Virus record (IMG/VR): IMGVR_UViG_3300021401_000005
Coordinates: 9,766 to 73,765 of that record
Length of the DNA: 64,000 nucleotides
Reading direction: 5' to 3' (one strand)
Origin: a virus
Taxonomy: Duplodnaviria; Caudoviricetes
The notes under the pieces: model-generated
What the model saw: only the letters and a program-made list of their open reading frames with translations
The model's database searches: none
What the model was told of the DNA's origin: nothing
Translations under genes and position numbers: made by a program
Shown here: one piece after another, positions 37,816 to 61,541 of the stretch
Layout of the letters: each line of letters begins with the position of its first letter
Position numbering within the stretch: the first letter of the stretch is position 1

Positions 37816-38571
37816 ATGCGCAAAGCCGTCCAGTATCCCTTGGCATTCGGCGCGCCGATGCTGGGGATGCTGCTGCTCATCGATACGGTTGCTGAACCAG
37901 AATCGCTCGTCCGTCGCGCGCGGCAGATGGCCGACGACCTTGCATCGGCCGTCACCAAGGTAATCACCAAAGCCAGCTATCCCCACATGCCGTGGCCGCC
38001 CGCCGTGGTCGCCAAACTCAAGCCAATCGATCCTGACGACGTTCAAAAGAACGACAAGCACTTATTTTGGCGCACGGTGTACGACACCAACGAAATCCAT
38101 CGCGTTGAGGCCGATCCGCCGCCAGCAATGAATTTCAACACTTCGGTGGCTCAGCCGCCGTTGCCGCCAACGGTTACTTTCAACGATGGCGGCTCTTCGT
38201 CGGGCGGCGGCGCGACCGACTCGACCACGCCTTGCATGACGGCGATGGTCGGTGGCGTCTGCCCCGTGCCATGCTCATCGAATGATATTTCTCTGTTGTG
38301 CGAGGAAAAGAAGGTGGACACCGCCGCTGCCGATCTCTCCCCGGCCTTGCAGAAGCTGCTTGGCTTTGATGATCCCGGCGCCCCAGTGATCGGCGATCCG
38401 CCGCATGTCGGCGGCATTGGCGGCTTCGCAGGGGGTGGCGGCGGCGGCGCAGGCGGCGCAGGCACCATCCCCGAGCCGTCCACATGGGTGATGCTGATCT
38501 TTGGCTTTGGGCTGATGGCATGGATGAGTCGACGCTCCATCGCGCGGCGGGCTTCTTCGTCAATGGACTGA
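37816..38571 (+). CDS. Protein with PEP-CTERM sorting signal
   Basis: C-terminus IPEPSTWVMLIFGFGLMAWMSRRSIARR; hydrophobic N-terminus. Confidence 0.85.
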   Translation: MRKAVQYPLAFGAPMLGMLLLIDTVAEPESLVRRARQMADDLASAVTKVITKASYPHMPWPPAVVAKLKPIDPDDVQKNDKHLFWRTVYDTNEIHRVEADPPPAMNFNTSVAQPPLPPTVTFNDGGSSSGGGATDSTTPCMTAMVGGVCPVPCSSNDISLLCEEKKVDTAAADLSPALQKLLGFDDPGAPVIGDPPHVGGIGGFAGGGGGGAGGAGTIPEPSTWVMLIFGFGLMAWMSRRSIARRASSSMD

Positions 38572-38690: not shown

Positions 38691-38785
38691 TCGTTCTCGA
38701 AGAACGAATCGCGAATGGGGACAACCGTCATCGGTCTATGGCATAAGCATGTCGGGCTAGCCGTTCGGCAGTGGGAGAATCCCCC

Positions 38786-39457
38786 ATGCCGTATGATCGT
38801 AAGCACTTCTTCGACACGGTCCGAAAGGATCTCTTTCGCGGCAACCTGACCCAGTCTCAGGTCGACGGGATGAACTATCTCCTCGAAGTGTGGGAGCTGC
38901 ATTTCGAGGCGGCCAATCCGCGCGACGGCACCAACTGGCTGGCCTACGCCCTGGCGACTTTCTTTCACGAAACCGCTGAGACGATGCAGCCGATCGAGGA
39001 ATACGGCAAAGGCTCCGGCAAGAGCTACGGCCAGCCGGCGGGGCCGCATGGCCAGCGATATTACGGGCGCGGCCACGTCCAGCTCACCTGGGAAGAAAAT
39101 TACAAAAACGGCCAGAAATTCCTCAAAGACCGCTACAACGTCCACGCCAACATCCACCCTGAAGCGCATCTGATGCTGCACCCGCAGACGTCAGCCCTGG
39201 TCAGTTATGACGGGATGATTCATGGCTGGTTCACGGGAGTCGGGTTGCCCAAATACTTCAATGCGACGGTCGAGGACCCGCGCAACGCGCGCCGGATCGT
39301 CAACGGCACCGACAAGATGGACCTCATCGCTGGCTACTATTCCAAGTTCAAGAAGGCGCTGAAACAGGTGCCTGCGGCGCCGCCGCTAGAAGAGGCTGAG
39401 CTGCCTGGGCTTCCCGAGTGCCCGTGCATGCCCGAGCCGACAGCGACGACCTCCTAA
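38786..39457 (+). CDS. Endolysin, glycoside hydrolase family 19
   Basis: AYALATFFHET...PIEEYG...YYGRGHVQLTWEENY...ARRIVNGTD. Confidence 0.9.
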   Translation: MPYDRKHFFDTVRKDLFRGNLTQSQVDGMNYLLEVWELHFEAANPRDGTNWLAYALATFFHETAETMQPIEEYGKGSGKSYGQPAGPHGQRYYGRGHVQLTWEENYKNGQKFLKDRYNVHANIHPEAHLMLHPQTSALVSYDGMIHGWFTGVGLPKYFNATVEDPRNARRIVNGTDKMDLIAGYYSKFKKALKQVPAAPPLEEAELPGLPECPCMPEPTATTS

Positions 39458-39685: not shown

Positions 39686-39990
39686 GCCCTGGCGATCTGA
39701 TCAACGCGCCGCCGTCGCCCAAAGTTCTCGATTATCCAGGCGCCATGGGGATCGGGATCGGCATCGTATTCACGGCGGCCTTGCTGTTCGTCGCCGGCAA
39801 GTTCGATCCGACCCACGGCACGCTGACGATCTCGATCTTGGTGACGGTTTCGTTTTTCGCGGTCGTCGCAGTGTGCCTGTTCTATACAATCCCCGTGGAC
39901 GAAGCGACGTCGATGGTCATCGGCGCGCTGGTCGCAGCGTTCGGCGCCGTGGTGGCGCATTGGCTTGGTCGCCCGAGGGATAAGCCATGA
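39682..39990 (+). CDS. Holin candidate (3 TM)
   Basis: GTG overlap start; three hydrophobic helices, basic C-terminus. Confidence 0.6.
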   Translation: MSPGDLINAPPSPKVLDYPGAMGIGIGIVFTAALLFVAGKFDPTHGTLTISILVTVSFFAVVAVCLFYTIPVDEATSMVIGALVAAFGAVVAHWLGRPRDKP

Positions 39991-40169
39991 GCCTGGGAAC
40001 CCTCCTCCTCATCATCCTGATCATCATCCTGATTGGAGGCGTCGGCCCGCGCTTCTACTCCGGCGCACCCTGGCAACCGGGCTACGGCTTTGGCAACGGC
40101 GGCATCAGCCTGATCGGCATCCTGCTGATCATCGTCGTCGTCTTGCTGCTGACAGGCAGGCTAGGCTAG
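39987..40169 (+). CDS. DUF3309-like small membrane protein
   Basis: MSLGTLLLIILIIILIGG...GYG...GILLIIVVVLLLTGRL. Confidence 0.75.
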   Translation: MSLGTLLLIILIIILIGGVGPRFYSGAPWQPGYGFGNGGISLIGILLIIVVVLLLTGRLG

Positions 40170-40198
40170 TTTCGATCCACGCCCCTCTGCGGGGCGAC
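40169..40198 (-). CRISPR. Solitary type I-C-like CRISPR repeat (no array, no cas genes)
   Basis: The - strand reads GTCGCCCCGCAGAGGGGCGTGGATCGAAAC: GTCGC 5' end, CGCCCC/GGGGCG stem and GCGTGGATCGAAAC 3' end typical of I-C repeats. Confidence 0.75.
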
Positions 40199-40403
40199 TC
40201 GGTTTTAAAAGAGGGAGACCGCGCTTCCGTAGGAGGTAAAAATCTATTGAAGGCGGTCTCCCGAAGTGCCCCCAGGCGAGGCGGCGCCGGGGGCAAAGCC
40301 GGGTTGTGGGACCCGGCTCAATTCGCGTGTAACGCAAATTTGAACAATTTGCACGTTCTGTTTTAGCGCTAGGCCTGGGAAAAATTACCTAACCGCGTTG
40401 AGA

Positions 40404-40434
40404 AGGAGGGGCGGGTTAGGTGCCCGCCCCTCCT
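40404..40434 (-). promoter_or_regulatory. 12-bp hairpin with CACCUAA loop (GCCUA family; may also act as a terminator)
   Basis: AGGAGGGGCGGG-CACCTAA-CCCGCCCCTCCT on the - strand. Confidence 0.65.
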
Positions 40435-40455
40435 AAATGCACGGCCTGCCACGCC

Positions 40456-40525
40456 TGCCGTGCCTTGCCGAGCGACGCCGCGCCTAACCGCGCCATGCCG
40501 CGCCGAGCCCAGCTCTGCCATGCCT
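40456..40525. repeat. Array of 14 pentamers, consensus NGCCN
   Basis: tgccg tgcct tgccg agcga cgccg cgcct aaccg cgcca tgccg cgccg agccc agctc tgcca tgcct. Confidence 0.85.
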
Positions 40526-40540
40526 GCCACAGCTTATGCC

Positions 40541-40906
40541 TTACCCTTCAAGCGAAATCAACATGTCCGCGATGCTGTAGGCCGTGTCCGCGTCCTTCGT
40601 CGACCAGTCGCTGATCGGGCTCTCGCCCCGCCGATGGATCGCCAGCGCGACCATGAGAATGGCATCTCGCCGCGCCTCGGAGCGCTTCTTGGCATTGCCG
40701 TTGGCGGCGGCGGCGATGCCGTGGTCTGCGTCGCCCAGGATCTCCTTTTCGCTTGGCGGGATGGCGCCGAGCATGCGCTTGAAGGCGGGGATCTCGCGCG
40801 TGGGCTCGCGCGTCGGGGTTGCGGGGATGCCGACGCCGGCGCCGGCGCGAACCTCGGCTTGTCCTTCGATGGTGGGTCGCCACGTCTGGTTCAACTCGTC
40901 ACTCAT
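40541..40906 (-). CDS. Hypothetical protein
   Basis: AAGGAG RBS; last gene of the leftward operon. Confidence 0.6.
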   Translation of the reverse strand: MSDELNQTWRPTIEGQAEVRAGAGVGIPATPTREPTREIPAFKRMLGAIPPSEKEILGDADHGIAAAANGNAKKRSEARRDAILMVALAIHRRGESPISDWSTKDADTAYSIADMLISLEG

Positions 40907-41178
40907 TTCAGTTGCTCCTTTAGCTTGTTGAGGCCCCTGGCCCGGTCAGGGTCTTCGGCGGGCGGCTCGTCATCGAGCTTCCAAGTCGGCGGCAGCTTGA
41001 CGATCTCGACCTTCCAGTCGTGGTCTTGCTCCTCGGCCCGATGGACGAGGGGCTGCGGCGCATAGGCGGTGAAGCAGCGTTGCGGAAAAGGGTAGTGCCA
41101 GATGCTGTGCATGCGACATGCGGCGGCCGGGTCCGTCGCCAGTGTGATGGCGATCACAGCCAGGGCCGCGCGCCTCAT
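40903..41178 (-). CDS. Small secreted hypothetical protein
   Basis: MRRAALAVIAITLATDPAAA signal-like start; coupled to neighbours. Confidence 0.55.
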   Translation of the reverse strand: MRRAALAVIAITLATDPAAACRMHSIWHYPFPQRCFTAYAPQPLVHRAEEQDHDWKVEIVKLPPTWKLDDEPPAEDPDRARGLNKLKEQLK

Positions 41179-42775: not shown

Positions 42776-42984
42776 TGGATCGACTCGATCCATCGGATGA
42801 CCGCAGGCGAATCATCGCTCATGGCGTGCATTGTACCGGCCAAGATCTGAGCGTGGTGGACCTTCATGTCCTGCCGGCGGTTGACCTCGATGCCGATCAG
42901 GCTGACCGCGTGCTGGAGATCCCCGGCGCGCGCCAGCTCCAAGGCGCGCCTCTTCAGATCGGCGAGCCACTCCTCCTTGGTCAC
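42772..42984 (-). CDS. Hypothetical protein
   Basis: GTGA overlap with the RecT stop. Confidence 0.55.
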   Translation of the reverse strand: MTKEEWLADLKRRALELARAGDLQHAVSLIGIEVNRRQDMKVHHAQILAGTMHAMSDDSPAVIRWIESIQ

Positions 42985-44228
42985 CGCGCGCCCACCTTGT
43001 CGGCGACGTTGCGCCATGCCTTGAGCTGGGCCAGGGAGATCCGCGCCATTTCATCTGGGGGTAATTCGTTTACCCAGCGCTCCAGCTCGGGACGGCCTTT
43101 CTTGGCCATGTCCGCGCCGCGCTCTTCGACCGGCGGCGTCAGCAGAAGATCGGGGGCGGAACCACCGGGAGCCGGCGCGGGGGTTTGCGATGCTCCCGGT
43201 GGCGCCTGTGAGCCGGGAGAGTGGCGCCCTTCCGGCTCTGGCGGCGCGCGGTGCGAAGGCGCGCCATCCGGGGCGGGGGGGATCTCCGCCCTGGATTCGA
43301 GAGGTTGCGCGGCCCCCTCGTCTCCGGCGCCTACTCCGGAGATGTCATGGGGGGCCGCGCGTTCCTGCGACAGGGGAGTCGACACCCGGTCAGCAGAACC
43401 AAATTCACCAGTCTCGGGATCGACTCCGACGAGAAGCTCTAGGCGGTCATCGAGTACGCTCGGCGCTTGAATACGGTCGGCGCGATCTCGCTCGACATTA
43501 TATAGCTCATCGTCGCGCGATAACAAACCCATGATGTCGCTGGACATCGGCAATTGCTTGGCGTGCCTCCTCGCGATCGTCTTTTTCGCCATCTCGTCGA
43601 AGCTCTTGCGCCACGCGGGCGAGAACTCGCCCTTGCGGTTCTTCCGCGCATACGTGTCGCGCACCAGCTCGACCTCGGCGCGCGTCATGACGTCCCGGCT
43701 TTTGTCGCCGCCTCTGATTTTGGCGACCGAATAGACGTGGGTCAGGAGCCCGTGGTCGAGATGCCGGCGCAGGCGCTTGTTGTAATCCTCGTCGGTTTCG
43801 CCGTCGGCGCGCACCAGCTCCGGCGCCATGTAGGGCTTGTGCTTGATGAACGGATCATCGCCCAGCTCGTAGTCGAAGAAGTCTTTGGCGTGGACCGCCG
43901 TAACGTCCCAGCTGGTCACCTCGCCAGAGCGGCGGACCTTCTTCCGGACGCCCGCCACCATTGGCATCCATGTCACTTGGCCGTCGAAGGGCACGAGCGC
44001 GCCGTCGTGGCCGTCAGGCAGGAGCCCATCGCTCGCCGCCTTCATGGCCGCGTTCATCAGGCTGCGCCGATTGCAGTTGAGCAGATTGGGGTCGAGGTTG
44101 ATCGCCGTCATGATGACGCGGACGAACTTCTTGGGATCGACGCCAGACCCGGTTAGCGCCGCCTCGAACTGGGTCATCCGCTGGCCCAGCTCCTGCGGGA
44201 TCGTAAGCTCCTTAGACTCCGCCATCAT
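42981..44228 (-). CDS. recT: RecT-family single-strand annealing protein
   Basis: SLMNAAMKAASDGLLPDGHDGALVPF, SPAWRKSFDEMAKKTIARRHAKQLPMS; adjacent to an exonuclease. Confidence 0.88.
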   Translation of the reverse strand: MMAESKELTIPQELGQRMTQFEAALTGSGVDPKKFVRVIMTAINLDPNLLNCNRRSLMNAAMKAASDGLLPDGHDGALVPFDGQVTWMPMVAGVRKKVRRSGEVTSWDVTAVHAKDFFDYELGDDPFIKHKPYMAPELVRADGETDEDYNKRLRRHLDHGLLTHVYSVAKIRGGDKSRDVMTRAEVELVRDTYARKNRKGEFSPAWRKSFDEMAKKTIARRHAKQLPMSSDIMGLLSRDDELYNVERDRADRIQAPSVLDDRLELLVGVDPETGEFGSADRVSTPLSQERAAPHDISGVGAGDEGAAQPLESRAEIPPAPDGAPSHRAPPEPEGRHSPGSQAPPGASQTPAPAPGGSAPDLLLTPPVEERGADMAKKGRPELERWVNELPPDEMARISLAQLKAWRNVADKVGAR

Positions 44229-45165
44229 CGACTCCCTTGACCGAAACTTGCGGGTATTGCGTCGCCTTCACGGTATATGATTTCTTCTTCACAACCTTCA
44301 CCGTCACCACGCGCGAACCGCAGCGCGCGCCAGGAGCGTTGGCCAGCTTGGTCATGATTCGCGCGTCGAGGATCTTGCGCTGATCCGTCGCGTCGGCACC
44401 CGCCTTCTCAACTTGCTTGAGCTGCGCTCTGTCGTTCAGGATCTCGCGGAACTCGACGTCGGGCGTGAGATCGATGATCGGCCCGGTGCCCTCCTCGTAG
44501 AGATCGAAGACCACCTTGCGGTCGCGGCCGAAGTCCGGATCGTAGGGGTCTCCCTCGGCCACCCGGCGCCATAGCTCGCCGGTCAGATCCTCGATCTTGT
44601 GGATAAGGTGCGGCTTGAGCGGGATGTCGATGTAGACGACCTCGATGCCGCCATCGCCCAGCTTCATCGCGGCCACGCCGGCCCAGCTGGCGCCGGTCAG
44701 ATAGGCTTCAATCGAGGCCTGGACGGCCACCCAGGTGGGCACCGCAATGTTGCCGTGCTCGTCATGCCAGCGGCGCTTGAAGGCGAACTGGCCGACGGTT
44801 TTGATCTGCACGATGCCAGCACCCCCATAGGCGGCGTCCTCTGGCCGGACCGCCCTAGCGTCCGGCGTGCAGCCGATCCGGGTCTCGTCGTCCCAGAAAT
44901 AGTGGTCGCTCTTGTCGAGCTTCCAGCTCGGATAATCCTCGCGCAGGATGTCGACGACGACCGGCTCGAACCGGCGCCCGCGCCGCAGCGTCGGGTTGTC
45001 TTCCTCATCGGGGAGCTTGCCGCTCTTCGCCGCCCAGAGCTTAAATGGAGTCCAGTACGGGTGAATATCGGGGCCAAATAGGCCCGCCGCTTCCGACGCA
45101 TTCACATTGCTGCGGCGCCTCGCTAACCATTGCTCGCGAGAGGTTATGGGCCAGCTGTGAATCAT
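44212..45165 (-). CDS. YqaJ-family (lambda-type) exonuclease
   Basis: WLARRRSNVNASEAA, TPFKLWAAKSG, RRGRRFEP, IGCTPDA, VQIKT. Confidence 0.88.
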   Translation of the reverse strand: MIHSWPITSREQWLARRRSNVNASEAAGLFGPDIHPYWTPFKLWAAKSGKLPDEEDNPTLRRGRRFEPVVVDILREDYPSWKLDKSDHYFWDDETRIGCTPDARAVRPEDAAYGGAGIVQIKTVGQFAFKRRWHDEHGNIAVPTWVAVQASIEAYLTGASWAGVAAMKLGDGGIEVVYIDIPLKPHLIHKIEDLTGELWRRVAEGDPYDPDFGRDRKVVFDLYEEGTGPIIDLTPDVEFREILNDRAQLKQVEKAGADATDQRKILDARIMTKLANAPGARCGSRVVTVKVVKKKSYTVKATQYPQVSVKGVDDGGV

Positions 45166-59464: not shown

Positions 59465-60391
59465 TCAGGCTGCTAGAAGCGCAGGCGCGCCCGTGGACGC
59501 CTCTTCGTCCGCGTCCGCCTCCTCGGCCGCCGCCGCGCCTCGGAGCCAGTCTACAGCCTTGCTGGCCGCGCTGGCGGCGGTGATGATCGCCGTTTCCCGC
59601 TCCTCAAGCAGCGAAACCCAAGTCTCGATGTAGGAAGCAGGAGCCTCGCCCATATCGATCCCCCACTCCGCACAGACGAACGCGCTGGTTAGCTCCGCGA
59701 TCAATTCCTCGGCCGCATAGGTCCGGTCGCCAAACTTGGCCCCAAAGGTCCGGTTGAGGCGCGAGGGATGTCCACTGGCGTGGCCCATCTCATGGAACAT
59801 GGTCGCGTAGTAGGGATGGGCGCCCTTGAACTGCGCGAAAGGCGGCATCTCGATGCGGTCGAGCAACGGCGAATATTGCGCCTTGCTGCCCTGCTCAACG
59901 AACCGAATCTCGGTCGCCGCAACGAAGGCGTCGAGGTCACCATCGCGCCCGTCCGGATTGACCGGCGCATGCTGGCGCGGCGCGCCAATGCCCAGGACTG
60001 AGTCCGGCAGCCCGTCGCACTGCGCGACGTTGAAAACCGGGTACGCCTTGAGGAAACCAATGCTCTTGTGCTTGTCGGGGTCCTGCCGATCGCGCACGAC
60101 CATTTTCTTGACGAAGATCACGGTGAGGCTCTTCTCGCCCGCGCGAACGGTTCCGCCGGCCGCCTTCGCTTGCTTGAACGTGAGCCAGCGCGGACCCCAG
60201 CCGTTCGCCTCGGCATGCGACCAGAGCAGGATGACGTTGGCGCCGCTGTAGGCGTGTCCGGTGACCGCGTTGCGCGGCATCACGCTTCCGTGAGCCTGGA
60301 CGCGCTCGGACCATGGCTTGCGCCACGGCGCAACGCCGGTCTTGAGCATGGCGAGGATTTTGTCGGTGATTTCGCGGTGCATGTCGCGCAT
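59465..60391 (-). CDS. ardC: ArdC antirestriction protein (ssDNA-binding plus zincin-like domain)
   Basis: GVAPWRKPW, YSGANVILLW, WLTFKQA, VFNVAQ, FHEMGHASGHPSRLNR, YAAEELIAEL. Confidence 0.9.
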   Translation of the reverse strand: MRDMHREITDKILAMLKTGVAPWRKPWSERVQAHGSVMPRNAVTGHAYSGANVILLWSHAEANGWGPRWLTFKQAKAAGGTVRAGEKSLTVIFVKKMVVRDRQDPDKHKSIGFLKAYPVFNVAQCDGLPDSVLGIGAPRQHAPVNPDGRDGDLDAFVAATEIRFVEQGSKAQYSPLLDRIEMPPFAQFKGAHPYYATMFHEMGHASGHPSRLNRTFGAKFGDRTYAAEELIAELTSAFVCAEWGIDMGEAPASYIETWVSLLEERETAIITAASAASKAVDWLRGAAAAEEADADEEASTGAPALLAA

Positions 60392-60412
60392 TGGGTTCGA
60401 CTCCAAAAAGTT

Positions 60413-61451: not shown

Positions 61452-61472
61452 GTTTCGACTCCTCAGATTGGC

Positions 61473-61541
61473 TGACGCTTAGGCTCATCAGCTGGCGCAT
61501 CACGCCAGGACGCGAGAGGTCGAGCCCCTCGTGTTTCGCCT
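61473..61541 (-). ncRNA. Type II hammerhead ribozyme
   Basis: The - strand reads AGGC GAAA CACGAGGGG-CTCGA-CCTCTCGCG TC^ CTGGCG-TGATG-CGCCAG CTGATGA GCCT AAG CGTCA. It has the intact CUGAUGA and GAAA core, a GUC cleavage triplet, three stems, and loop I UGAUG complementary to the 3' tail CGUCA (pseudoknot). Confidence 0.9.

What the first reader, a model, noticed from the sequence alone, without database searches (positions are those of the whole stretch)
40169..40198. Solitary type I-C CRISPR repeat: candidate RNA anti-CRISPR
Seen: one 30-nt repeat-like unit with I-C-type ends and a 6-bp stem, no second repeat at spacer distance and no cas genes. It lies on the - strand downstream of the leftward early operon, preceded by CTCTTTTAAAACCGA. 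Established: solitary repeat units on mobile elements can act as RNA anti-CRISPRs (Racrs) by titrating Cas proteins, and I-C repeats are processed by Cas5d. It is slightly shorter than the usual 32 nt. Sequence 3' of it is antisense to the DUF3309-like gene, so a regulatory guide role is an alternative.
Basis: partly seen in the sequence, partly recalled or inferred. Interest (0 to 1): 0.85.

Follow-up and report, generated by a model that had tools for sequence, protein, structure and literature searches.

The report
Lone type I-C CRISPR repeat in phage
A soil phage carries one genuine copy of a bacterial type I-C CRISPR repeat, a candidate RNA decoy against host immunity of a kind already described, but whether it is transcribed in the working direction is not shown.

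Summary
At 40169-40198 (- strand) lies one 30-nt unit. Its first 8 and last 17 bases match repeats of real alphaproteobacterial CRISPR arrays, and two arrays I examined sit beside type I-C cas operons. A covariance model built from 33 real repeats scores it 40.1 bits. The next best hit in the whole 73.8-kb virus record scores 10.5 bits. It folds like an I-C repeat: 2-nt 5' overhang, 6-bp stem, 5-nt loop, and an 11-nt tail starting UGG. It is solitary, and the record has no Cas5c, Cas7c, Cas8c or Cas1 match. It lies in a ~40-nt segment that the only syntenic relatives lack.

The Racr reading is only partly supported. The RNA determinants for Cas5c are intact. But no promoter was found, and a strong - strand terminator-like hairpin ends 8 nt upstream. 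On the + strand, the unit's reverse complement plus a T-run looks like a terminator for the lysis operon. No RNA data were available.

My estimate is about 0.4 for a Racr decoy and about 0.3 for a captured repeat kept as a terminator. It is a new member of a known kind (solitary repeat units, RacrIC1). This scan has noted lone I-C repeats in other phages before.

The parts
40169..40198 (-). Solitary type I-C CRISPR repeat unit (SRU). Its RNA would have GU, a stem CGCCCC/GGGGCG, a loop GCAGA, and the tail UGGAUCGAAAC.
   Evidence: 40.1 bits; fold. Best natural match is 28/30 at 44.1 bits.
40168..40207 (.). About 40 nt present in this phage but absent from the syntenic relatives. It holds the repeat plus ACTCGGTTTT (+ strand). 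The boundaries are uncertain by a few bases.
   Evidence: Alignment A1. Contigs from runs X2 and X3 carry the identical form.
40180..40206 (+). Reverse complement of the repeat hairpin followed by ACTCGG-TTTT. This is a terminator-like site directly after the lysis-operon stop codon.
   Evidence: consensus scan.: -13.9 kcal/mol with a 3-4-bp lower stem, but z only -0.69.
40207..40262 (-). Hairpin 2: a 10-bp outer stem (40213-40222 with 40253-40262) plus an inner stem, followed on the - strand by UCUUUU. It is terminator-like for leftward transcripts and is conserved in the relatives. Its loop carries CCUCC on the - strand.
   Evidence: I5; -28.6 kcal/mol, z -6.3; G-U cells on the - strand; a C-A break on the + strand.
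40267..40295 (.). Hairpin 3. In the relatives the homologous hairpin scores weakly as an I-C-like repeat on the + strand. The window's copy does not.
40297..40318 (.). Hairpin 4 (AGCCGGGT/ACCCGGCT), with a compensatory change in the relatives.
   Evidence: (I12).
40325..40400 (.). Nearly invariant non-coding block shared with the relatives. Function unknown; possibly a promoter or operator.
   Evidence: invariant columns. Unique in the window. Found only in the same 4 viral contigs.
40404..40434 (-). Perfect 12-bp hairpin with a 7-nt loop, specific to this phage.
   Evidence: I2.
39987..40169 (+). Last gene of the rightward lysis cassette: a 60-aa DUF3309 membrane protein. The last base of its stop codon is the last base of the repeat.
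   Evidence: GC3 0.87. The endolysin is at 38771-39457.
40541..40906 (-). Last gene (121 aa, no known family) of the leftward operon that holds RecE-like and RecT genes. It ends 342 nt upstream of the repeat.
   Evidence: (GC3 0.84).

Best explanation
The element is a genuine type I-C CRISPR repeat. An uncultivated soil phage, probably of an alphaproteobacterium, captured it as a roughly 40-nt insertion where its rightward lysis operon and its leftward RecET operon converge.

The most likely function is that of an RNA anti-CRISPR decoy (Racr). Leftward transcripts that read through the hairpin-2 terminator would carry the repeat in sense. The RNA would fold into the I-C hairpin with an intact U-G-G and 11-nt handle. 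Host Cas5c would bind and cut it, and Cascade subunits would be tied up on a non-targeting RNA, lowering interference.

Shown here: repeat identity, fold, solitariness, absence of cas genes, lineage-specific presence, and - strand RNA structure right up to the unit. Inferred: sense transcription, Cas5c binding, and any effect on immunity.
For: - Both flanks (8 + 17 nt) are identical to array repeats in 120 bacterial stretches. In 2 of 2 arrays examined (L009, L010) the array lies directly downstream of Cas5c/Cas8c/Cas7/Cas4/Cas1c/Cas2 genes and points the same way.
- The covariance model gives 40.1 bits.
- An emulation of the SRUFinder criteria gives 93.3% identity, full coverage and 44.1 bits against one natural 30-nt variant. 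The published cut-off is 41.1 bits (PMC10651486, section 30).
- The architecture matches the reported I-C substrate. The differences sit where Cas5c is reported tolerant, in the loop (PMC8524198 passages; fold).
- It is truly solitary and the record has no cas genes.
- It is absent from the two distinct syntenic relative lineages, so it is a discrete gain or loss.
- It is identical in contigs from two further soil runs.
- Hairpin 2 shows G-U cells that work only on the - strand, so leftward RNA probably reaches the unit's doorstep.
- All nine Racr candidates tested in PMC10651486, including the I-C one, inhibited when expressed (abstract and section 11).
Against: - No promoter-like site was found on either strand in 39700-41000. 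The upstream sequence does not fit the spacing of I-C array leaders.
- Hairpin 2 plus UCUUUU ends 8 nt before the unit on the - strand. Only read-through RNA would contain the unit.
- The + strand reading as a terminator fits the layout equally well.
- No RNA evidence: the one RNA run offered laid nothing.
- No acr or aca neighbour was recognised.
- The host is unknown, so a matching I-C system cannot be shown. None of 2317 spacers from the fetched arrays matched the phage.
- The exact unit was not found in any array. 0 of 81 strict variants equal it. At up to 2 mismatches it was found in 0 of 401 and 0 of 401 sampled genomes of two alphaproteobacterial orders.
- Only one natural variant, a single copy, passes the published bit-score cut-off. 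All the other harvested variants (138 in all) score 38.2 bits or less.
Confidence: 0.4

Rival explanations
1. The captured repeat is kept as a terminator and has no CRISPR-related role now. The reverse complement of the repeat hairpin plus the T-run (40180-40206, + strand) terminates the lysis operon right after the DUF3309 stop codon. It stands back to back (TTTT|AAAA) with the - strand terminator, hairpin 2.
For: - The consensus scan lists CGCCCCTCTGCGGGGCG ACTCGGTTTT on the + strand as one of 2 terminator-like sites.
- The inserted segment supplies both the hairpin and the T-run.
- The relatives have no T-run-bearing + strand hairpin next to the stop codon.
- The + strand is certainly transcribed up to here, because the unit abuts a coding gene.
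Against: - It is a weak terminator. Six bases separate the 6-bp stem from the T-run. The 48-nt stretch folds no better than shuffles (z -0.69). The scan expected 1.1 such sites by chance.
- This reading does not explain why all 25 flank bases of a CRISPR repeat, including the single-stranded 11-nt tail that a terminator does not need, are intact.
Confidence: 0.3
2. It is a neutral or DNA-level relic: a fragment of a host array picked up by recombination. It is either without function or serves as a short homology patch for recombination with host arrays.
For: - The unit comes with about 10 extra bases, as a piece cut from an array would.
- The phage encodes RecE-like and RecT proteins.
Against: - All positions that are invariant in the real repeats are kept, although the loop differs from every harvested variant. 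This is more easily explained by selection or very recent capture. Part of that invariance follows from the search pattern I used.
- Thirty bases is a very short homology patch.
Confidence: 0.12
3. It is a one-guide weapon or regulatory crRNA-like RNA. Cas5c cutting leaves an 11-nt handle joined to the downstream RNA (antisense to the DUF3309 3' end). That RNA guides host Cascade against repeat-less sibling phages or a host target.
For: - The geometry exists: the handle is followed by 35 nt.
- In the relatives the homologous site is preceded by TTT.
- Other follow-ups in this scan read lone I-C repeats this way. These are leads only.
Against: - The relatives match 27/35 (L121) and 24/35 (L122-124), with only 5 of 8 seed bases. 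The PAM position is TTT, not the TTC reported for I-C (abstract of PMC8406640 as listed).
- There is no second repeat to define a 3' end.
- No other site in the phage's own genome matches at 23 or more of 35 bases.
Confidence: 0.05
4. It works as an anti-repeat. The abundant RNA is the + strand 3' end of the lysis mRNA. Its single-stranded GUUUCGAUCCA plus hairpin is complementary to host pre-crRNA repeats and crRNA handles. It blocks Cas5c processing or triggers double-strand RNA cleavage.
For: - The + strand is the strand most surely transcribed.
- Complementarity to the host repeat family is 8 + 17 contiguous bases.
- In the relatives the weak I-C-like element lies on the other strand, so strand is not fixed at this locus.
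Against: - I found no precedent in the papers I read.
- Late (lysis) timing is poor for countering immunity.
- The complement is itself folded in a hairpin.
Confidence: 0.05

Closest known systems
RacrIC1 and other RNA anti-CRISPRs; solitary repeat units of viruses (Camara-Wilpert et al. 2023, PMC10651486)
   Same: A single repeat of a defined CRISPR subtype (I-C). It is intergenic, on a phage without cas genes, with a repeat-like fold and an intact processing site.
   Different: RacrIC1 lies 11 nt downstream of an acrIC5 gene and is shown to be co-transcribed with it (find passages). Here no acr gene is recognised, no promoter is seen, a terminator-like hairpin precedes the unit, and nothing is known about expression or activity. 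The stem is 6 bp rather than 7 bp.
Type I-C CRISPR array repeats of Alphaproteobacteria (for example the arrays in L009, L010 and L031)
   Same: Identical 8-nt 5' and 17-nt 3' parts, and the same overhang, stem, loop and tail architecture. L031 has natural 30-nt, 6-bp-stem repeats.
   Different: There is only one copy and no leader, spacers or cas genes. The loop GCAGA was not seen in any of the 138 harvested variants.
Viral crRNA-like regulatory RNAs (Cracr) and virus-borne mini-arrays (bioRxiv 10.1101/2024.10.29.618823, section 7)
   Same: Repeat-derived RNA on a phage that would use host Cas proteins.
   Different: Those have a spacer-like part flanked by (degenerate) repeats that matches a host cas or toxin promoter. 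Here no second repeat exists and no target is known.
Back-to-back intrinsic terminators between convergent operons
   Same: GC hairpin, TTTT|AAAA, GC hairpin, exactly between two converging gene ends.
   Different: One of the two hairpins is a full CRISPR repeat, including an 11-nt tail with no role in termination.

Membership tests
Viral solitary repeat unit (SRU) / Racr candidate | Close match to a bona fide CRISPR repeat of known subtype. SRUFinder requires >=90% identity, >=90% coverage and >=41.1 bits. | tested here: met
   Emulated with blastn-short (word size 6) against 138 harvested variants. The best match is 28/30, full length, 44.1 bits. It is borderline: only that one single-copy variant passes, and the others score <=38.2 bits. 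The covariance model gives 40.1 bits. I could not use the authors' own repeat database.
Viral solitary repeat unit (SRU) / Racr candidate | Solitary: no full or partial repeat in the flanks. | tested here: met
   (flank scores equal the null).
Viral solitary repeat unit (SRU) / Racr candidate | Intergenic, on a mobile element, not next to cas genes. | tested here: met
   It lies between the gene ends at 40169 and 40541. The record is a virus record with CheckV completeness 94%. Cas5c, Cas7c, Cas8c and Cas1 gave 0 matches. The Cas8c control rang in none of the 14 control genomes, so that one search is weak.
Viral solitary repeat unit (SRU) / Racr candidate | Transcribed in the repeat's sense orientation as a small RNA. 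| tested here: inconclusive
   No promoter was found. A - strand terminator-like hairpin lies just upstream. G-U cells support - strand RNA up to that hairpin. The RNA run X20 laid nothing.
Viral solitary repeat unit (SRU) / Racr candidate | Binds Cas proteins and inhibits interference. | not testable with these tools
   Needs a Cas5c assay and a phage or plasmid interference assay.
Viral solitary repeat unit (SRU) / Racr candidate | The host carries a CRISPR-Cas system of the matching subtype. | not testable with these tools
   The host is unknown. TerL is <=42% identical to cultured phages. There are no spacer hits. The repeat family itself is alphaproteobacterial I-C.
Viral solitary repeat unit (SRU) / Racr candidate | An acr or aca gene nearby. 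This is frequent but not obligatory. | tested here: inconclusive
   The neighbours have no informative family in Pfam or PHROGs, the PDB or the Atlas. No Acr library was available.
Type I-C CRISPR repeat | 2-nt 5' overhang, 7-bp stem, about 5-nt loop, 11-nt 3' overhang, and U-G-G after the cut site (PMC8524198). | tested here: met
   2 / 6 bp / 5 / 11, with a tail starting UGG. The stem is one pair short, as in the natural L031 repeats.
Type I-C CRISPR repeat | Repeats of this sequence family accompany I-C cas operons. | tested here: met
   2 of 2 loci examined (L009, L010) have Cas5c and/or Cas8c, Cas7c, Cas4, Cas1c and Cas2 above the curated cut-offs, upstream and co-directional.
Mini-array / crRNA-like regulatory RNA (Cracr) | A spacer-like segment bounded by two (possibly degenerate) repeats. 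| tested here: not met
   At a start-to-start spacing of 56-80 nt, the best ungapped matches were 13 of 30.
Intrinsic terminator (+ strand) | A GC-rich hairpin directly followed by a U-run. | tested here: inconclusive
   It meets the loose consensus. The U-run starts 6 nt after the 6-bp stem, or 1 nt after a 3-bp lower stem, and z is -0.69.

The most novel reading that the evidence does not exclude
The unit acts through its + strand transcript. It sits at the 3' end of the lysis mRNA as an 'anti-repeat'. Its 11-nt single-stranded lead and hairpin are complementary to every repeat of the host's I-C pre-crRNA. It would block Cas5c maturation or expose the duplex to RNase III, like a tracrRNA in reverse. 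This would be an antisense class of RNA anti-CRISPR. The intergenic region would be a hotspot where repeat mimics are gained, lost and flipped: the relatives carry a weak I-C-like hairpin on the other strand.
Probability: 0.05. Interest if true: 0.8.

Novelty: new member of a known kind. Interest (0 to 1): 0.4.

Why it matters
If active, this would extend I-C RNA anti-CRISPRs from a Bifidobacterium prophage to uncultivated soil phages of Alphaproteobacteria. It would also give a host clue: an alphaproteobacterium with GTCGCCCC...GGGGCGTGGATCGAAAC repeats.

The natural pair of a repeat-bearing phage and repeat-less relatives in the same soils is a ready-made comparison for asking what a lone repeat is worth.

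The case also carries a caution. A perfect repeat mimic can sit where it would be transcribed mainly in antisense, behind a terminator. Sequence-based SRU lists therefore need strand and expression checks before an entry is called a Racr.

Tried and rejected
- **Second, degenerate repeat (mini-array or Cracr).** Rejected.
- **Guide against repeat-less siblings or self.** Rejected for the available relatives: 27/35 and 24/35 matches, seed 5/8, TTT at the PAM position.
- **Rfam.** Only a sub-threshold CRISPR-DR9 hit (18.8 bits against a gathering score of 45, E 1.4). No family reached gathering score in the whole window.
- **Same repeat form in viral contigs.** 0 stretches. The phage's own record may be left out by the tool.
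- **Metagenome scan for 30-nt forms.** 2 stretches, both decayed copies inside real arrays.
- **Spacer matches.** 2317 spacers from the 120 bacterial loci against the 73.8-kb genome gave no hit of 24 nt or more.
- **Exact unit in arrays.** At <=2 mismatches, only the L031 variant was found among 5 genomes. It was not found in the 401 + 401 genomes sampled from two orders. These are samples, not proof of absence.
- **Leader-like promoter upstream.** The spacing does not fit.
- **'Solitary' bacterial hits.** Most proved to be ends of decayed arrays. L023, L028, L029 and L103 look solitary but were not followed.
- **RNA run X20.** Nothing laid. This says nothing either way.
- **Neighbouring proteins.** No informative match in Pfam, PHROGs, the PDB or the Atlas.
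- **The scan's 'lone Cas7-like' ORF (L165:3456-4049).** No Pfam family and no Cas7c match in the record.
- **Cultured relatives.** TerL is at most 42% identical. The DNA search gave only 66-nt endolysin matches to Ruegeria phages.
- **Supplements.** Supplementary Data 1 and 2 of PMC10651486 (SRUFinder output on IMG/VR3) may already list this contig. Supplements were closed, so I cannot say.
- **What I read of each paper.**
  - PMC10651486: outline, abstract, sections 11, 12 and 30, and find passages.
  - bioRxiv 10.1101/2024.10.29.618823: outline, abstract, section 7.
  - PMC8524198: find passages only.
  - PMC8406640: search listing (abstract start) only.
  - Faure et al. 2019: known to me only as cited in PMC10651486.

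Full report
**What is there.** The window is 64 kb of a 73,765-bp single-contig virus record. The record is linear, with CheckV completeness 94% and 63.5% G+C. It was assembled from soil metagenomes. On the - strand at 40169-40198 lies GTCGCCCCGCAGAGGGGCGTGGATCGAAAC, preceded by CTCTTTTAAAACCGA. It occurs once in the window at up to 3 mismatches, and 0 of 100 shuffles gave a match.

**Is it a CRISPR repeat?**
Nearly all were arrays in Alphaproteobacteria.
- These held 81 distinct repeat forms of 29-33 nt. None was identical to the window's unit.
- In the 2 arrays I examined (L009, L010), the array follows Cas5c and/or Cas8c, Cas7c, Cas4, Cas1c and Cas2 genes in the same direction. All scored above NCBIfam cut-offs. 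So the family is type I-C, and GTCGC-to-GAAAC is the sense direction.
- A covariance model built from 33 real 32-nt repeats scores the window's unit 40.1 bits. The next best hit in the whole phage record is 10.5 bits.
- I emulated the published SRUFinder rules (PMC10651486, section 30). The best natural match was 28/30 over the full length at 44.1 bits, against a cut-off of 41.1. That match is to a single-copy variant in the L031 array. All other variants score 38.2 bits or less. The unit is therefore borderline by that pipeline, and may or may not be in the published lists, which I could not open.
- Rfam gives only a sub-threshold CRISPR-DR9 hit.

**Fold and Cas5c determinants.** The unit folds as a 2-nt overhang, 6-bp stem, 5-nt loop and 11-nt tail (-13.0 kcal/mol). 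Real 32-nt repeats have a 7-bp stem. The natural L031 repeats have the same 6-bp form. Passages of PMC8524198 describe I-C repeats as having 2-nt and 11-nt overhangs, a 7-nt stem and a pentaloop. They report cleavage after nucleotide 21, with recognition centred on U22-G23-G24, the stem base and the 3' overhang, not on the loop or the 5' overhang. The window's unit keeps all of these. Its differences are the loop and one stem pair.

**Solitary and cas-less.** No degenerate second repeat lies in the flanks. Cas5c, Cas7c, Cas8c and Cas1 profiles find nothing in the record. The model finds no other copy in the record.

**Surroundings.**
- To the left, on the + strand, is a lysis cassette: a GH19-type endolysin at 38771-39457, small membrane proteins, and a 60-aa DUF3309 gene at 39987-40169. 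The last base of that gene's stop codon is the last base of the repeat.
- To the right, on the - strand, a run of genes ends at 40541. It includes a RecE-like exonuclease (44212-45165), RecT (42981-44228) and several small ORFs with no known family.
- The unit therefore lies in a 371-nt region between convergent operons. That region is unusually structured: z is -6.4 on the - strand and -4.1 on the + strand.

**Comparison with relatives.**
- 42 related viral loci were fetched with two neighbouring proteins. Only 4 share this intergenic region (L121-L124). L122-L124 are identical there, so these are two distinct lineages.
- They keep the DUF3309 gene, hairpins 2 to 4 and a nearly invariant ~75-nt block. 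They lack about 40 nt (40168-40207) that hold the repeat plus ACTCGGTTTT.
- Contigs from two other soil runs carry the repeat-bearing form with no differences. A divergent relative that skips 40131-40212 is present in the same runs.
- The unit is thus a discrete, lineage-specific gain (or a loss in the relatives).

**Which strand is read?** The evidence is mixed.
- No sigma-70-like promoter was found on either strand. The upstream sequence does not fit the conserved geometry of I-C array leaders.
- On the - strand, hairpin 2 (-28.6 kcal/mol, z -6.3) is followed by UCUUUU, and that run ends 8 nt before the unit. In the relatives the same hairpin and U-run abut the DUF3309 stop codon.
- The inner stem of hairpin 2 has G-U cells on the - strand, where the + strand would have a C-A break. 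Leftward RNA therefore probably reaches this point but should mostly stop there. Only read-through RNA would carry the repeat in sense.
- On the + strand, the reverse complement of the repeat plus the T-run meets a loose terminator consensus right after the lysis operon. It is weak, however (z -0.69).
- No RNA data could be brought to bear.

**An unexpected neighbour.** With the same model, the best hits in 395 kb of related phage DNA are at hairpin 3 of the syntenic relatives. They score 20.5 bits (L166:3650-3691) and 14.6 bits (L167-L169), against 13.7 bits for the best unrelated hit. They read GTCGCCCCC, a 17-nt loop, then GGGGGCG and a 9-nt A-rich tail. They lie on the + strand, opposite to the window's unit. 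The window's own hairpin 3 does not score. This hints that repeat mimics have a history at this locus. It is weak evidence, though: the tail doubles as the U-run of the - strand hairpin 4.

**Mechanism.**
- My best reading (about 0.4) is the published one for solitary repeat units. Sense RNA mimics the repeat and is bound and cut by Cas5c, and it ties up Cascade subunits. All nine candidates tested in PMC10651486 inhibited when expressed, including an I-C unit, RacrIC1.
- The main rival (about 0.3) is that the captured repeat is kept because it gives the lysis operon a terminator.
- A neutral relic or recombination patch is about 0.12.
- A one-guide weapon against siblings is about 0.05. It was tested and not supported.
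- An antisense anti-repeat is about 0.05.

**Novelty.** Solitary repeat units in viruses are known: PMC10651486 reports 2,103 on viral sequences. An I-C Racr is validated. This is a new candidate member, not a new kind. This scan has noted lone I-C repeats in other phages before. The points of interest are the clean comparison with and without the insertion, the position behind a terminator and in antisense to a 3' UTR, and the possible turnover of mimics at one locus.

Noticed in passing
L166:3650-3691 (+), L167:5053-5096 (+); homologous to window 40267-40295: Hairpin 3 of the syntenic relatives scores as a weak I-C-like repeat with a 17-nt loop. The scores are 20.5 and 14.6 bits, against 13.7 for the best unrelated hit in 395 kb. 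It lies on the strand opposite to the window's unit. The window's own copy has lost the resemblance.
   Followed up: partly
window 40436-40535: A tract with 5-nt periodicity (GGC-NN-like units, read on the - strand) lies between the stop codon of the 121-aa gene and the 12-bp hairpin at 40404-40434. The repeat finder lists short direct-repeat families there. It is absent from the relatives' intergenic region. Function unknown.
   Followed up: no
window 40223-40252 (loop of hairpin 2): The loop sequence is nearly invariant among the three lineages. On the - strand it reads ...UUUACCUCCUACGG..., an anti-Shine-Dalgarno-like CCUCC. This could mark a leftward small RNA that ends at the U-run.
   Followed up: no
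window 40325-40400: A ~75-nt non-coding block is more conserved than the flanking genes. It contains short palindromes (GCGTGTAACGC, CAAATTTG) and TTGAAC-N17-TTAGCG on the + strand. It was found only in the same 4 viral contigs.
   Followed up: partly
window 37816-38571 (+): A phage gene encodes a 251-aa protein ending in a PEP-CTERM sorting signal (Pfam E 2.9e-7). This suggests a host with an exosortase system.
   Followed up: no
window 59465-60406 (-): A 313-aa protein matches PHROG 7245, annotated as an anti-restriction protein (E 2.9e-82). The phage therefore carries at least one recognisable counter-defence gene.
   Followed up: no
L001-L120 (leader sides of arrays): Alphaproteobacterial I-C array leaders share a common layout: TTCGCG, then ATTTnCC, then about 16-17 nt, then TTAGnn, then 7-9 nt, then the first repeat. 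This is probably the array promoter, and possibly an integration signal as well.
   Followed up: no
L023:4036, L028 (- strand, 518), L029 (- strand, 7680), L103:6568: Single I-C repeats lie in bacterial contigs with no visible neighbouring repeat within 110 nt. L103's copy is flanked by a 14-nt inverted repeat. L028's copy is next to a recombinase-like reading frame.
   Followed up: no
L031:353-847: In this natural array of '30-nt' repeats, the listed spacers all end in GT. The true unit may therefore be 32 nt with a shifted hairpin. The window's unit is preceded by GA.
   Followed up: no
window 1-64000: No Rfam family reaches its gathering score anywhere in the window. This bears on the scan's note of a hammerhead ribozyme at 61471-61541.
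   Followed up: partly
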